Source: Mytilus edulis
Lineage: Eukaryota
Length of the DNA stretch: 64,000 bases
NCBI RefSeq assembly: GCF_963676685.1
Contig: NC_092351.1
Span: forward strand, 6,944,001 to 7,008,000
Direction of reading: 5' to 3'
Shown here piece by piece: positions 45,001 through 57,000 of this stretch (positions are counted from its first letter, which is position 1; each line of letters opens with the position of its first letter). A program made the position numbers.

Positions 45001-48000
45001 TAAAGATGTCTACATATTCGCAATTCAACAAATTTGCTTAACGTTATGGGACTTTTTCAAATCACACAAAAATGGTAAGGTAGAGTTTTAATTAGCAAAG
45101 AAAAACAAATTTAACATAAAAATACCGCAATCCGGGAAAAATTCTAAACGGAAAATTCCTTAGCAAAAGGCAAAATCAAAAGCCCAAACACCTCAAACGA
45201 ATGGAAAACAGCTGTCATATTCCTGACTTATATATACCAATGTACATTTTAAGCAATGGCAGGTACGATGGGAACAACACAAGGATCCTGATTGGACTAA
45301 ATCTATAAGTTATGAAGATTCTGAGACGGCGAGGAGCACTGATTCTATTACCAGTACAAGTAAAATAATATGGGTGACGCCAGAGAAAGAAGAACTTGAA
45401 ACAGCTAGATCATTATGGGAAAGGGTATACCGATTGTGGTATGAACCTAGAAAAACTATTCCGGATAATAAATTTCAAGAAATGCAGAAATTGACAAAAC
45501 TTTCGATGCCTAAACATGTCAGATTCAAAGGAAATGATAAATGATTTTTTTTATGTTCACAAATATTCCCGACACTATATTAGTTCTGATCTTACCAATG
45601 CATCAACAACTTTGTTTGTACAGTTGTCATATCGTAATGTTGTTTGTTTATTTATTTGTTTGTTTTAATTTATTTTCAGTTTCCTTTAACTATTTATATG
45701 ATAAATATTTGATTTGCATACAATTAATTATGATTTGTTTTATTCGTACTCTTTGTTTTTGAAAAGAACAATCTGTTCATTATTATTTATTCATTTTTTT
45801 CAAAGAAAAAAAAGTTGCAATTTTATTAATTTATTTAAAAACAAAATATTTTACAATTTTAAAATCATACTATCTACTAATATCAAAAACAATCATTGAA
45901 CAGATTCAGTGTCTTGTGTTTTTGTTGCAACGTCATCAAATCTATAATCCTCATTGGTTTTACGTTTTTTACAATTAAGACCAAGTCTTTTACGCTGCCA
46001 ATGTAAGACGAATATTAGGACACAGGTTACACTTATAAAAACAACCAGTACAATCACTACAATCACACCTGAACTTAAGTGACTTTCTATCTTTTTATCT
46101 ATTGAGATGGTACTGACGTCTTTAGAAGCTGAAAATATAATTCGAGAAAATATGTTATTGAAAAAAATAAACCCTTAGACAGAAGAGCAATACAAAATGT
46201 AGTCATATTTAAAATAAATAAAGCAAAACAAATTGAATGGCGATAAAGTTTATGAAATTCATCACAAAATGTAATGCAGTTTTCTAAAAGCAAACCATGA
46301 AGTTGTTGAAGGACACAATAAATAACTCGTCTATTTAGAAGACGTAAACACATAAAACTAACATGTAAATAAAGAAATAAGTGAAGAACAATATCTCAAA
46401 ACAAATAAAAGAAAACACATACATAAAAGCATTTACATTTCATCAATGAAATGAAGATAAAATTGAGAATGGAAATGGGGAATGTGTCAAAGAGACAACA
46501 ACAATACATCTTATACAAAAAAGGTAAATGAACATTAACATACAAGGCAATTGACAAGTGTTAGTAAATGAATGCTGAGTATAATTGCGCTAAGAGCATA
46601 ACATGAAATATATTCACATAGACGTTATAGTGTTTCACAAACCATTAATGGATTTGCCTGTAAGCTAATGCAAGAGACTTAAAGAATTCAGGCCAATTCA
46701 TAAATCAGTCGCCAATAATATGGTGACGCAAATTCATAAGTTGGTGTTATTTTTGTTAATACGTTTTTGTTTATTTGAACGTATTGATGGATACGTATTG
46801 ATGGATCGTAAAATTGAAAAAATAACTAGTTTATATTTGTTTTAAGCATTTTATGACTAGAAACATCAACTAATTTTACATCTATGTATATTGAAGCATT
46901 AGTAATTTCAACGTGATCTGGAAAGGAAATATAAATTGATTATAAAAGCAGAGTGGTGTTAGGGGTGAAACAAGCACTATGCTATTAAATAATATATAGA
47001 TAAAAAGAAAAAAAGAAATTCATTTACAGTATTAATTACATTAGGCAGAGTTGTTAAGTTGTATGCAAAATCTTGCAATTTTTTGTACTAATAAAGAAAA
47101 AAATTCACTTTGTGCTTTACTTTGTTATGTTAAAGTTCACGTCTGTGAAAACGTAAATTTCAATTTAAAACAAATGTCTCTTTAAAACGGATTAAAAAAT
47201 CTTTATGCTTAGTCAGTTCTTATATAATGTCACAGTTGATGAAATCATAAAGTATGAATAAATGGTATTGACTTTCACATTTACAATGAGTATACAGTTA
47301 TACAGGTAGTCATACTTTTATCAACACACAAATCTTATTTTGAACATATAGAATGACATTGAATATTAATTTCACTATTAATTAGATTTGAACCCCTTTG
47401 ACTCATGGATTGGTTACATTTGATTTGTAACATTTATAAAACCTACAACTCGAAATATGTGTTTTTATTTAAAAGAAACGCGCGTCTGACATACGCAACT
47501 ATAACCAGTGGTATCTTTGGTGAAATTTAACATAAATTTTATGAATTAATTGACACAAATATTTGTACTTACTGTCTTCAAAGCATTTATCTAACAAACA
47601 AATAATGAACAATAAACCAGAGTATTATAACAAGTGAGAAGTATGGTTCCTTTTATAGTTCTTTCTTTGAATGACATATAAATTAAAATTTCAGAAGTAT
47701 GTATACAGTGGTTCATCCTTTTTTGTGGAATACCATAAACGGTACCAATTTTTCGTAAAGCTTTGTTTTAGATAATCATAGCTTGTAAAATCCGAAAGTT
47801 ACGTGTTAGTCACTGGTTACGTGTATGGTATTTCTTTAAAGTCTAATCAAATGATTGATAACATAGTTTCTAGAAAAAATATGCAGTAAGCAACTATTTT
47901 CCTTTTTTTGAGGACTGAGTCTGTTAGGTTTCCTGCCGTAGGTCGGTGGTTCATTCTTGACACACCAGTTTACTCCAAAACTAGTTTGACCGTCATGGTA

Positions 48001-54000: not shown

Positions 54001-57000
54001 ATTAAATGACAAAACTACATGACAGGAATACAGTAAAAATAACAAGAACAGTCAGGTCAGAGAAATACACAAGCGAATAATATAATAGATCATTTCGACA
54101 TGTATACCATAGAATAACAACGAACATATAATATTTTTATACGACAGTAGTACCAATTAATACAGCAAAAAGAATTATGGACAGTGCGTCACACGAATGT
54201 ATGTTTGAATGTAATAGTTCTTTGAATAGAACTGTCTTACACTTTAAGGGTGAAATGAGTTGTCATGTCAAGAAAATAAGATGTAACTGACAGTGATAAA
54301 ATCTAGCATAAGTGTGTAAACATTACATTGAAAGCGCATAATGAATATACTCACTTTAATATATAGAATGTAGAATTTCTTTCAACACAATTCAGATGTA
54401 AAGTCTTCCTATTTGGTATAGATGTGTTATATCCAGAGATAGAGGAAGACCCAAAAACCATTGGACCATTATATAGACTTATCCAAACTCCTCGCAATTC
54501 ATCTGGAAAGCTGCAAACGCCATCTACAAAAGAGGGTGTTGACAAGCTTGATTAAAATTGTTTGGTCAGAGTCTTTGTTTGACCCGTCAATATAGTTGTT
54601 CACCATAAAGTATGCCAGTACGTTAAACAAAGCGTTTTATAATGATTAATATCAGTATCAAAGCGTTGACTTATACTCGCTTCGTATGCACATAGTGAAT
54701 AAATAGAATAAAAATCAAAACCCCCAAAACCCCCTCCCCGAAAAACAGTATACATTGATAAGAGGTTAACAAGGAATTGCAAAACAGTACGCGGTAAAGT
54801 AGACGACAAAAAATGTGTTCAATTGTAAACTTACCACAGAATGGTATACTTGTCAAAAGTAGATACGTGCCAAAAATATCAGTTATATCCATGGCAACTT
54901 TTACATGGGAAACACACACACAAACGTTCAAGAATGATTCCGTAATAACTGATTTTTATGAATAACCTAATCATAGCAGTATATCAAAAGAATTTAAAAT
55001 TTCGTTTAACTTCATATGTAGAATGAATCAAGTTATAATTTCAACATATACCCTGTGATGCTCAATTGATTTCAAACAGTAAACAGCTGTTAATTATCCA
55101 CAGAGCCTATAAATATGTTCATTGTATTTTTATATAGGGTATACACACATGCAAATTAAATGTTAACAAATTCACAGTGTAGTGAAGATGCTAATCTTCA
55201 ATGATGGGTTTTGGTAGATGTGATTGAAATTAAAACCTCTAATTATTTTGATAACGTTTATAAGACCTGAATTTAAGTTTATATCAAATTTATGAAGTGT
55301 TTCAATATTGTGAACAATAACATAAAAATGGACTGTAGGTAATAATTTTATCATTATATTCATAATAAATACAAATTGTAATTTATTGATGTAAATGTTT
55401 AAAACCATTAATTTATACACCGATAATGACAAGTCACACACACGCGAAATGTCTGATGTATAAAGACCAATATTTACAGCACTTCGATGTTTTTTTTCAC
55501 AATGACACAATTTTCATTTCACATATCATATTGACATTACTCTCATTGAGAAACACATCTAAATTCTGACGAATGCTTTTTTGCTGTTTAGAAAAATCTG
55601 TCTTTTTATACGATATAAAATCAACTCTTAGTAGATATAGTATGGTCTTTTTGTTACGATATCGAATGGGTTTTAAACCCATATCATCGCCTGCAACAGA
55701 TACATACATTGTATATTGGTTAGTTTAACAGATTACACGGTAGAACACCTCGGCAAAACTTTGTTGAAATCAACCAACTGTGTAACATAATTATAGCTGA
55801 TTACTTCCGTATATTTTCGGATGACGTATACGGTGCAGGAAATGCTTACTCTTCCGGAGCACCTGATTTCACTCCCGGTTTTTAGTGGAGTTCGTGTTGT
55901 TTCTTATTTATTATTTATAACTGTTGATGTAAATGTCCTTTGTTTTTTTTAGTTTTTGTTTACTCCTTGGTTTTGATTGCCATTGTCTTCTCATTGCTCA
56001 AATTTCCTTTAAAGGAATATTGCAAACAATAGAAATTTATTATTTCTAATTTAGTAAATGGTATCGCACAATCAGTCTTTATATGGCAACATGTGACAAA
56101 CACTCCTTTGTCGCGTTTTAAAATAGTGCATTTTATACTTTTTAACATACTCATCAACCTTTGTCAATTGTGTTAAAAATAAGCTTTGAATATTCTTTTT
56201 CTAGCGGTGATAGTTTTGACCAAAACTGTTTTTATACTTAGGCAATCATCCATGATAAATTTTAATTTCACTAAAGCAATAAATGAGTTTGTTACATTTG
56301 AAATATGCCTTTTTGTACTTCTTTGTGAAATATTTGTTTGTTTTTATTGTGATTAAGATGATAACACAATGTTGACAGATGTACCCCTATTTGGACATTT
56401 TTATTAATTATGTCTGTTTGTGTTGATTACGTATCGCTGTCAATATAATGGAATTGATGAGACTGTCGAACAAGTGAGAGGTTTAACTAGCTATTATAAA
56501 CCAGGTTCAATTCACAATTGCTACATAGAAAATGCCTGTACCAAGTCAGGAATAAGACAGTTGTTATCCATTCGTTTAATGTGTTTGAGCTTTTGATTTT
56601 TCCATTTGATTAGGGACTTCATGTTTTGAATTTCCCCCAAAAATCAGTATTTTCATGATTTTACTTTTTTTAGTTACATGGTGTGCTAGTGATTTAAAAT
56701 GCTGTATAATGGGTCATTCCACGGAGTAAGAACGAAGCTCGAGTCCCCATTGTGAATTTACTGACCCCATATATATATATATCGTATAAATCACTGGCAC
56801 ACTATGTAACTAATATATAGTACCGATAATATTAACATATGAGACTTAGACTAGCGGTCTATCGAAGAGATCAAGACTGGAAGTAATAATAATTAACTTC
56901 CATAATGTTTATAATGAAAGTATTGTCTAAGTATAAAAAAAAAACCCACCAACTTGAAATGTGTTTTATGGCTTTATTACAATTGTTCATTATCAATTTC

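What the first reader, a model, noticed from the sequence alone, without database searches (positions are those of the whole stretch)
45893..54892. Convergent pair of divergent paralogs defines a Cys-rich type I membrane protein family hidden from the ORF track
Seen: both genes share the first seven intron phases (1,2,1,1,1,0,1), a signal-peptide exon (TYFLLASLAF / TYLLLTSIPF), a C.FP.ELRG..W start and aligned cysteines through exons 2-7. Otherwise they are very divergent and have unrelated cytoplasmic tails (about 200 aa versus about 35 aa). From memory, the C-x-F-P-x3-G-x-W start and Cys spacing resemble the invertebrate DUF7042-DUF7044 domains of unknown function; this is unverified. A long-tail/short-tail pair suggests a signalling versus decoy or co-receptor arrangement (inference).
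Basis: partly seen in the sequence, partly recalled or inferred. Interest (0 to 1): 0.68.

Follow-up and report, generated by a model that had tools for sequence, protein, structure and literature searches.

The report
Two mussel DUF7043-DUF7042 membrane protein genes
The window holds two real, intact, tail-to-tail mussel genes for distantly related single-pass membrane proteins of a large, uncharacterised mollusc family, already predicted in public annotations and with no known function.

Summary
The window is Mytilus DNA. Gene B (- strand, 54892-45893, 8 coding exons plus an optional 18-nt micro-exon, 357/363 aa) fills the finding's coordinates. Its paralog, gene A (+ strand, 5089-45544, 10 coding exons, 516 aa), lies outside them; the stop codons are 348 bp apart. 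Both have intron phases 1,2,1,1,1,0,1. Database orthologs align at 25% identity over 274 residues (E 9e-13) with 9 shared cysteine columns.

The pair does not define a new family. Both genes are 96-97% identical to public 'uncharacterized protein' models. Gene B's orthologs pass Pfam DUF7043. A profile of the pair finds 227 cluster representatives; all named ones examined are molluscs, and most scanned carry DUF7042 in the second domain.

AlphaFold models give two all-beta ectodomain domains, one membrane helix and a disordered tail. No solved structure matches either model.

A and B are not sisters in the tree: A pairs with a scallop protein, B with an oyster cluster. The pair is therefore old. 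Tails of 4 to about 1000 aa are a family-wide feature. The signalling/decoy idea is untested and weakly disfavoured. Gene A's tail carries motifs (PxWQxxWE) conserved in scallop and oyster.

Verdict: a real feature and an ordinary member of a known but unstudied family.

The parts
54835..54892 (-). Gene B exon 1: start codon at 54892 and signal peptide (MDITDIFGTYLLLTSIPFC); ends in phase 1
   Evidence: tblastn of P0001/P0002, 19/19 identical to P0001; GT donor
54355..54523 (-). Gene B exon 2: CSFPDELRGVW start, first half of the DUF7043-like domain; ends in phase 2
   Evidence: Pfam DUF7043 E 0.018 and DUF7044 E 0.025 on this exon alone; 55/55 identical to P0001; AG/GT
50719..50822 (-). Gene B exon 3: second half of domain 1; ends in phase 1
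   Evidence: 33/34 to P0001
49857..49970 (-). Gene B exon 4: linker between the two domains, one conserved Cys; ends in phase 1
   Evidence: 37/37
49174..49350 (-). Gene B exon 5: start of domain 2 (CPQIIQGYY), 4 Cys; ends in phase 1
   Evidence: 58/58
48613..48725 (-). Gene B exon 6: domain 2, 2 Cys; ends in phase 0
   Evidence: 37/37
48130..48232 (-). Gene B exon 7: end of domain 2, last conserved Cys; ends in phase 1
   Evidence: 33/34
47573..47590 (-). Optional 18-nt micro-exon (adds DKCFED to the stalk); phase 1 in, phase 1 out
   Evidence: AG/GT flanks; present in P0002 and P0004 (363 aa), absent from P0001 and P0005
45893..46128 (-). Gene B last exon: stalk, membrane span (46004-46069), 36-aa tail, stop at 45893-45895
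   Evidence: AlphaFold helix 305-333 in ortholog P0002; tail 36/36 identical to P0002 and P0006
5089..5143 (+). Gene A exon 1: start codon and signal peptide (MDMMLTYFLLASLAFVSI); ends in phase 1
   Evidence: 18/18 to P0007
6432..6612 (+). Gene A exon 2: CEFPAELRGYDW start, first half of domain 1; ends in phase 2
   Evidence: Pfam DUF7043 E 0.061; 58/59 to P0007
7708..7811 (+). Gene A exon 3; ends in phase 1; followed by a 27,905-bp intron
35717..35845 (+). Gene A exon 4; ends in phase 1
   Evidence: 42/42
39378..39539 (+). Gene A exon 5: start of domain 2 (CPTSIQYY), 3 Cys; ends in phase 1
41654..41769 (+). Gene A exon 6: the exon most often matched by family members; GC donor; ends in phase 0
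   Evidence: 59 of 118 family tblastn matches fall here
42199..42313 (+). Gene A exon 7: end of domain 2 and stalk; ends in phase 1
42503..42828 (+). Gene A exon 8: membrane span (42529-42612) and Lys/Ser-rich low-complexity part of the tail
   Evidence: AlphaFold helix 293-345, then pLDDT below 50 for 345-417 in P0007
43951..44022 (+). Gene A exon 9: tail
45254..45544 (+). Gene A exon 10: conserved tail motifs (PQWQVRWEQHKDP; WVTPEKEELETARSLWERVYRLW); stop at 45542-45544

Best explanation
Two intact, anciently diverged paralogs of a mollusc-expanded family of single-pass (type I) membrane glycoproteins lie tail to tail.

Each protein has, in order: a signal peptide; a DUF7043-type beta domain beginning C-x-F-P-x-E-L-R-G; a linker; a DUF7042-type beta domain beginning C-P-x-x-I-Q; a short stalk; one membrane helix; and a lineage-specific cytoplasmic tail.

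The most likely mode of action is inferred, not shown. The disulfide-braced ectodomain would be a cell-surface binding module. The tail would decide what the binding event couples to.
- Gene A's 192-aa tail is largely disordered. It carries two short conserved motifs, predicted helical, that probably dock cytosolic partners.
- Gene B's 36-aa basic-then-acidic tail is too short for more than sorting or a single docking site.

The two genes are old neighbours or chance neighbours, not a recent tandem duplicate.
For: Shown:
- Gene structures are complete with open frames.
- Exon-by-exon identity is 496/510 to P0007 and 338/351 to P0001, both public 'uncharacterized/hypothetical' Mytilus proteins.
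- Paralogy: BLASTP E 9e-13, identical intron phases, 9 invariant Cys columns.
- Family: a profile of the pair finds 227 representatives at E<=1e-3 and 126 at E<=1e-10.
- Of the 67 representatives scanned, 46 carry DUF7042 at about residues 150-290 (41 at or above the cut-off), 8 carry DUF7043 at the N-terminus, and 17 carry none of the three DUFs.
- Of 30 representative clusters looked up, 29 have a named member, and all of those are bivalves or gastropods.
- Fold: AlphaFold2 gives mean pLDDT 84.4 and pTM 0.72 for P0002, and 75.0 and 0.59 for P0007. The ectodomain blocks are mostly above 90 and all-beta in two domains, with one long helix at the hydrophobic span.
- Age of the pair: P0007 groups with scallop P0009 (SH-aLRT 97). 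The gene B clade groups with P0015, whose cluster holds a Crassostrea gigas fragment (98).
- Tail: PxWQxxWE and WxxPE(K/S)xE...W motifs are shared by P0007, scallop P0009 and oyster P0012. W[QE]xxWE occurs in 6 of 83 family tails against a mean of 0.015 in 1000 shuffles; relatedness inflates this. The motifs fall in helices 421-436 and 463-501 of an otherwise disordered tail.

Inferred:
- Ligand binding by the ectodomain.
- Partner docking by the tail motifs.
Against: - No functional datum exists for any member. No paper in the library names DUF7042, DUF7043 or DUF7044, or six of the bivalve LOC identifiers.
- No transcript evidence was available here.
- Neither P0007 nor the gene B orthologs reach Pfam DUF7042 at E<=1. 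P0007 does not reach DUF7043 as a whole protein. Their membership rests on homology to relatives.
- No solved structure supports a binding function. Foldseek against the PDB gives no match at E<=1e-3 for either model, and TM-scores are at most 0.28.
- 73 of the 156 family proteins at hand have no membrane span by my crude rule. Many of these are fragments, but some members may be secreted.
- Signal peptide and topology were judged by eye, by a hydrophobicity rule and from AlphaFold helices. No dedicated predictor was used.
Confidence: 0.6

Rival explanations
1. The long-tailed and short-tailed neighbours work as a functional pair on one ligand: a signalling receptor (A) and a decoy or co-receptor (B).
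For: - Same two-domain ectodomain architecture and the same intron plan.
- Immediate tail-to-tail adjacency, with stop codons 348 bp apart.
- Tails of 192 aa against 36 aa.
Against: - The ectodomains share only 25% identity, which makes a shared ligand unlikely.
- A and B are not sisters. Each is closer to a protein of another bivalve order (P0002 against P0015 E 3e-33, 30% identity).
- B's tail is kept at 83-100% identity among five Mytilus proteins, which argues for a use of its own.
- Short and long tails are mixed throughout the family: 19 of 83 tails are <=50 aa and 28 of 83 are >250 aa.
- No binding test was run.
Confidence: 0.12
2. The proteins are structural or adhesive cell-surface or matrix components (cell-cell or cell-matrix adhesion, mucus or shell-matrix association) and not signal-transducing receptors. 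The tails would serve only anchoring and sorting.
For: - One relative (P0084, Pecten) fuses two DUF7042 domains to many EGF repeats, as adhesion and matrix proteins do.
- Many relatives lack a membrane span by my rule.
- No catalytic or known signalling domain appears in any of the 67 tails scanned.
- Sequons are present in the ectodomain exons of both genes.
Against: - Gene A's tail motifs are conserved across mussel, scallop and oyster.
- A group of 16 long tails are similar to one another. Both points indicate selected cytoplasmic functions beyond anchoring.
Confidence: 0.2
3. One or both are decaying copies or annotation artefacts with no function.
For: - Gene A has a 27.9-kb intron with other genes inside it, and one non-GT donor.
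- Gene B sits on a long stem branch of length 1.41.
Against: - Both frames are open over all exons, with consistent splice sites.
- Lengths equal those of the orthologs: 516 aa, and 357/363 aa.
- Gene B is kept in at least four Mytilus species.
- All conserved cysteines are present.
- GC-AG introns are a normal minor class (recalled).
Confidence: 0.05

Closest known systems
Pfam DUF7043 (PF23070), DUF7042 (PF23069) and DUF7044 (PF23071) proteins of molluscs and arthropods
   Same: - N-terminal C-x-F-P...G-x-W domain, scoring above the DUF7043 cut-off in gene B's orthologs.
- The second domain aligns with the DUF7042 region of relatives.
- The nearest Atlas cluster is 'DUF7042 domain-containing protein', Mollusca, score 0.93. 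Arthropod DUF7042/7043/7044 clusters score 0.86, which is a lead only.
   Different: - The A and B proteins are too divergent to reach DUF7042 themselves.
- Gene A reaches DUF7043 only below the cut-off: 14 bits on exon 2.
- The arthropod clusters carry three domain types in about 614 aa. These two proteins have two domains, one membrane span and a tail.
- No member of any of these families has a described function.
Public Mytilus gene models: P0001 (M. galloprovincialis hypothetical protein AM593_09309), P0002 (M. trossulus LOC134697366), P0004 (M. californianus LOC127726346), P0007 (M. galloprovincialis LOC143084955)
   Same: - Same genes: exon-by-exon identity 96.3%, 92.3%, 82.1% and 97.3%.
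- Same lengths, and both micro-exon variants are represented.
   Different: The models are named only 'uncharacterized' or 'hypothetical'. Their paralogy, adjacency, shared intron plan and tail motifs are not stated in the names seen.
Bacterial two-lobed beta surface proteins (factor H binding protein, transferrin-binding protein B, hemophilin) and lipocalin/avidin-type barrels
   Same: They recur at the top of the Foldseek lists for both models and in the viral-protein list. Like the models, they are built of meander beta domains. The description of their folds is recalled.
   Different: - No PDB match has E<=1e-3. Six matches in the viral-protein library (BFVD) do, one of them named lipocalin-like.
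- TM-scores are 0.10-0.29 and rmsd is mostly 14-20 A (up to 33 A for the top BFVD rows) over whole-protein alignments.
- Sequence identity is 6-14%.
- This is a resemblance of general beta architecture at most, not evidence of kinship or shared function.

Membership tests
Pfam DUF7043 (PF23070) | Whole-protein HMM score at or above the gathering score of 27 bits | tested here: met
   For gene B, through its database orthologs: P0001 33.1, P0002 33.0 and P0004 27.2 bits at residues 22-118. The window's own exon 2 alone gives 15.9 bits (E 0.018), because intron 2 splits the domain. The joined window protein was not scanned.
Pfam DUF7043 (PF23070), gene A | Whole-protein HMM score at or above 27 bits | tested here: not met
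   Exon 2 alone gives 14.1-14.4 bits, E 0.05-0.06. The family is not listed at E<=1 for the whole ortholog P0007. Kinship rests on BLASTP to gene B's ortholog (E 9e-13) and on the family profile.
Pfam DUF7042 (PF23069) | HMM match over the second ectodomain domain | tested here: inconclusive
   There is no match at E<=1 in P0001, P0002, P0004 or P0007, nor in any single exon. Proteins found by the A/B profile over profile positions of about 8-347 carry DUF7042 at about residues 150-290: 46 of 67 scanned, 41 at or above the cut-off.
Type I single-pass membrane protein | N-terminal signal peptide, one membrane span, C-terminus in the cytoplasm | tested here: inconclusive
   - Both proteins have a hydrophobic N-terminus followed by the first Cys, and one hydrophobic stretch at 297-327.
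- AlphaFold gives helices 3-16 and 305-333 (P0002), and 2-15 and 293-345 (P0007).
- Basic residues follow the span.
- No SignalP or TMHMM-type predictor was available, and topology was not tested.
Lipocalin/avidin-type or fHbp/TbpB-type beta barrels | Confident structural superposition (TM-score of 0.5 or more, significant Foldseek E-value) | tested here: not met
   Best PDB E-values are 1.1e-3 (P0002 model) and 9.6e-3 (P0007 model), with TM at most 0.28. Best TM in the viral library is 0.29. Only whole models could be searched, not single domains.
Internal duplication (domain 1 homologous to domain 2) | Significant profile-profile match between the two domains | tested here: inconclusive
   hhalign of domain 1 against domain 2 columns of the 72-row alignment gives probability 7.1% and E 0.005 over 43 columns. 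The match pairs the two Cys...Cys strands of each domain.

The most novel reading that the evidence does not exclude
The DUF7043-DUF7042 proteins would be an unrecognised mollusc-wide class of cell-surface receptors. Their double beta-domain ectodomain fold has no solved counterpart. Their interchangeable disordered tails would carry family-specific docking motifs such as PxWQxxWE. The A/B locus would be an ancient linked long-tail/short-tail unit, kept together because the two products act on the same pathway.
Probability: 0.15. Interest if true: 0.6.

Novelty: new member of a known kind. Interest (0 to 1): 0.3.

Why it matters
The locus itself is ordinary. Both genes are already predicted in public mussel annotations, and their domains are catalogued in Pfam.

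The family behind it has some value:
- At least 227 sequence clusters across bivalves and gastropods.
- A confidently modelled ectodomain with no match among solved structures.
- Cytoplasmic tails from 4 to about 1000 residues with no known domain.
- No paper in the searched library.

Large lineage-specific families of surface proteins in bivalves are often tied to recognition and immunity (general knowledge, not tested here). This family is therefore a reasonable but unproven candidate for such a role. The conserved tail motifs of gene A give a concrete handle for finding partners.

Tried and rejected
- Direct exon-level BLASTP between gene B and the rest of the window found only the exon 2 pair. 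The other low-E hits were interspersed repeats in introns.
- Pfam on single exons gave nothing beyond sub-threshold DUF7043/7044 on exon 2 of each gene. Hits on the membrane-span and Lys-rich exons (Piezo_TM1-24, PFF1_TM, Protocadherin and others, all below their cut-offs) are compositional.
- A sequence-profile search of the PDB gave only stalk and membrane-span look-alikes: CD166 at E 0.0064, APP and ErbB2 transmembrane peptides.
- Foldseek against the PDB (two models) and against viral proteins gave no usable match.
- The test for internal duplication of the two domains was inconclusive.
- The search for other proteins sharing gene A's last-exon tail found only its own ortholog. That search depends on shared exact words, so it is weak evidence of absence.
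- Gene A's tail ends in KHVRF, which fits the RVxF phosphatase-1 docking pattern as I recall it. A loose version of that pattern occurs in 19 of 83 family tails, so it carries no weight.
- Paper searches for the DUF names and six LOC identifiers found nothing.
- Complex prediction was not used, because the report does not claim that A and B bind.
- A search, scan or fold of the joined spliced proteins of the window was left out. Window exons were searched one by one, and database orthologs served as full-length stand-ins.

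
Full report
**What the window is.** The window is AT-rich (29-39% G+C) and holds no N. Exon-level searches identify it as mussel (Mytilus) DNA. Exon 2 of the gene in the finding's coordinates matches predicted proteins of M. galloprovincialis, M. trossulus, M. californianus, M. coruscus and M. edulis. The matching exon of the second gene finds M. galloprovincialis LOC143084955. It is not human sequence.

**How the models were handled.** I left out the step of joining the exons into one protein for a search, scan or fold. 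Wherever a full-length protein was needed, I used the database orthologs P0001, P0002, P0004 and P0007 as deposited. Statements about whole proteins therefore rest on stand-ins. Summed over whole codons of the exons, the stand-ins are 96.3%, 92.3%, 82.1% (gene B) and 97.3% (gene A) identical to the window.

**Checking the observation.** The two C-x-F-P motifs lie at 54483-54515 (-) and 6440-6475 (+). The finding's coordinates therefore contain only one gene (B). Its paralog (A) begins 40 kb upstream on the other strand.

tblastn of the orthologs placed every exon. I then read the junctions from the sequence and verified them arithmetically without joining sequence.
- **Gene B:** exons 54892-54835, 54523-54355, 50822-50719, 49970-49857, 49350-49174, 48725-48613, 48232-48130 and 46128-45893, giving 357 codons plus stop. 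An optional in-frame 18-nt micro-exon at 47590-47573 is present in P0002 and P0004 and absent from P0001 and P0005.
- **Gene A:** exons 5089-5143, 6432-6612, 7708-7811, 35717-35845, 39378-39539, 41654-41769, 42199-42313, 42503-42828, 43951-44022 and 45254-45544, giving 516 codons plus stop. Intron 3 is 27,905 bp long. Intron 6 has a GC donor.
- **Intron positions:** mapped by hand onto the BLASTP alignment, introns 1, 3, 4, 5 and 6 interrupt aligned residues. Intron 2 is within 1-3 residues in a poorly aligned stretch. Intron 7 lies in the unalignable stalk.
- **Arrangement:** the stop codons are 348 bp apart, so the genes are convergent.

**Is the similarity real?** At exon level only the exon 2 pair is detectable: 39% over 56 aa, E 1.4e-6. 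That was the best hit of gene B's frames against all six-frame ORFs of the rest of the window. With the full-length orthologs, BLASTP gives E 9e-13 and 25% identity over 274 residues, from the signal peptide to the last ectodomain cysteine. A five-sequence alignment has nine invariant cysteine columns. The tails do not align and are 192 aa and 36 aa long by a simple hydrophobic-stretch rule.

**What the proteins are.**
- Gene B's orthologs pass Pfam DUF7043 (33.1, 33.0 and 27.2 bits; cut-off 27) over residues 22-118, with DUF7044 as a weaker overlapping match.
- The window's own exon 2 of each gene gives the same families below the cut-off (E 0.018-0.061), covering the first half of the profile, because intron 2 splits the domain.
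- P0007 as a whole shows only compositional hits on its membrane span and Lys-rich tail.
- A profile built from the A and B orthologs found 227 representatives at E<=1e-3 in a library of 1.84 billion proteins clustered at 50% identity: 126 at E<=1e-10 and 15 at E<=1e-30. Most matched from about residue 10 to about 340.
- I scanned 67 of the 150 listed representatives, namely the best-scoring and the longest. Of these, 46 carry DUF7042 at about residues 150-290 (41 at or above the cut-off), 8 carry DUF7043 at the N-terminus, 2 carry DUF7044, and 17 carry none of the three.
- Apart from EGF repeats in one scallop protein and an endonuclease domain in one probably chimeric model, nothing else passed. 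No tail has a Pfam domain.
- Of 30 representative clusters looked up, 29 have a named member, all molluscs. The bivalves are Mytilus, Pecten, Ylistrum, Mizuhopecten, Argopecten, Crassostrea/Magallana, Tegillarca, Ruditapes, Potamilus and Sinanodonta. The gastropods are Aplysia, Elysia, Haliotis, Pomacea, Babylonia, Nucella and Batillaria. Nearly all are called 'uncharacterized' or 'hypothetical'. One cluster has no name and I did not trace it.
- The protein-language-model atlas puts the gene B ortholog's ectodomain next to a mollusc 'DUF7042 domain-containing protein' cluster (0.93) and, as leads only, arthropod DUF7042/7043/7044 clusters (0.86).

The family exists already and is large.

**Only two copies in this window.** tblastn of 149 family proteins against the window gave 118 matches at E<=1e-3. 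All fall inside exons of the two models.

**Structure.** I modelled each ortholog with AlphaFold2, using alignments of 72 and 73 family rows. For these I kept hits of up to about 560 aa with near-complete ectodomains and left out the long-tailed and fragmentary ones.
- P0002 has mean pLDDT 84.4 and pTM 0.72. P0007 has 75.0 and 0.59. Most ectodomain blocks are above 90.
- Both models show two all-beta domains of sequential antiparallel strands, a stalk and one long helix at the hydrophobic span.
- P0007's tail is below pLDDT 50 except for helices at 421-436 and 463-501.
- Foldseek against the PDB found no match at E<=1e-3 for either model. The top rows are bacterial factor H binding protein, transferrin-binding protein B, a lipocalin-like immune modulator and tandem streptavidin, all with TM-scores of 0.10-0.28.
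- The viral-protein library gave six hits at E<=1e-3, with TM at most 0.28. One of the six is named 'lipocalin-like'; an 'avidin family' row lies lower, at E 2.1e-2.
- A sequence-profile search of the PDB matched only stalk and membrane-span segments.
- I treat 'meander beta barrels of the lipocalin/avidin kind' as an untested lead. Only whole models could be searched.
- A profile comparison of domain 1 with domain 2 was inconclusive (probability 7%).

**History of the pair.** I built a quick maximum-likelihood tree of 72 ectodomains (276 columns, SH-aLRT support only).
- P0007 groups with the scallop protein P0009 (support 97).
- The gene B clade sits on a long stem (1.41) and groups with P0015 (support 98). 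Its cluster contains a Crassostrea gigas fragment.
- P0002 against P0015 gives E 3e-33 and 30% identity, closer than A is to B.
- A and B share a 26-row clade (support 94) but are not sisters.

If the tree is right, the split predates the divergence of mussels, scallops and oysters. The adjacency is then old linkage or coincidence, not recent tandem duplication. Whether the two lineages are neighbours in other bivalves could not be checked.

**The tails.**
- Among the 156 family proteins at hand, 83 have a membrane span by my rule. Their tails run from 4 to 1010 aa with a median of 157: 19 are <=50 aa and 28 are >250 aa.
- The tails fall into several mutually dissimilar groups, the largest with 16 long tails. 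A long-tail/short-tail contrast is therefore a family-wide feature.
- Gene A's tail aligns with those of scallop P0009 and oyster P0012 around two motifs: P-x-W-Q-x-x-W-E-x-x-x-D-P and W-x-x-P-E-(K/S)-x-E...W-x-(R/K)-(V/I).
- W[QE]xxWE occurs in 6 of 83 tails, against a mean of 0.015 and a maximum of 1 in 1000 shuffles. It also occurs in P0012. It appears in a second tail group as PPKK-x-WQK-x-WEK. Shared ancestry inflates this contrast.
- Gene B's 36-aa tail is 83-100% identical among five Mytilus proteins and unlike other short tails.

**Most likely mechanism (inferred).** These are single-pass surface glycoproteins. Sequons are present in the ectodomain exons of both genes. The disulfide-braced two-domain ectodomain would bind an extracellular partner, and the tail would set the intracellular coupling. 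Gene A would couple through short docking motifs in a disordered tail. Gene B's tail allows at most a sorting or single docking signal. I put about 0.9 on 'real, intact paralogs of this family' and about 0.4 on the receptor-with-docking-tail mechanism. The stated confidence of 0.6 is a blend of the two.

**Literature.** No paper in the searched library contains DUF7042, DUF7043 or DUF7044, or six of the bivalve LOC identifiers of relatives. For mussel presence-absence variation I saw only a search listing and the starts of abstracts (PMC7653742 and PMC10514466). Nothing there was linked to these genes. Supplementary tables were closed and may list them.

**Verdict.** The feature is real and was accurately described. 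It is an ordinary member pair of a catalogued but unstudied mollusc family that public annotations already predict. The family, more than the locus, is the thing of modest interest.

Noticed in passing
window 12029-13375 (-), 26077-27375 (-), 30953-32365 (-): Three long, uninterrupted open frames (448, 432 and 470 aa) lie on the opposite strand inside gene A's 27.9-kb intron 3. Each is a complete rhodopsin-family 7TM receptor by Pfam (E 1.6e-25, 1.3e-22, 2e-26). For the third, the nearest solved relatives are cholecystokinin-A and orexin receptors (E 1.4e-17). This is a nested cluster of intronless peptide-receptor-like GPCR paralogs.
   Followed up: partly
window 45545-46166: The two stop codons are 348 bp apart. 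On the + strand the first AATAAA or ATTAAA after gene A's stop is at 46166, beyond gene B's last coding exon. On the - strand, signals follow gene B's stop within about 60-110 bp. The 3' ends of the two transcripts may therefore overlap. This was not tested against transcripts.
   Followed up: no
window 48044-48130 (-), 47573-47590 (-): If gene B's intron 7 is read through, the frame stays open for about 28 more codons and then stops before the membrane span. The database protein P0003 (286 aa) ends in such a read-through. This is either a possible secreted isoform or a truncated gene model. The 18-nt micro-exon gives a second isoform difference in the stalk.
   Followed up: partly
window 41770-41771: Gene A intron 6 has a GC-AG boundary (donor GCAAGT). 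All other introns of both genes are GT-AG.
   Followed up: yes
window 8987-9469, 10720-10823, 25629-25794, 61621-61875: Several tandem repeat arrays lie in gene A's large intron and downstream of gene B (periods 44, 22, 20 and 129 nt). Stretches of gene B's introns resemble sequence elsewhere in the window, for example 50370-50615 against 24780-25055 and 46399-46589 against 33492-33649. These are probably interspersed repeats.
   Followed up: no
family proteins P0007, P0009, P0012, P0020, P0038, P0107, P0135: A tail motif, (P)-x-W-Q-x-x-W-E, recurs in family members with otherwise dissimilar tails and occurs twice in P0107. I know of no described motif of this form (recalled, not searched).
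   Followed up: partly
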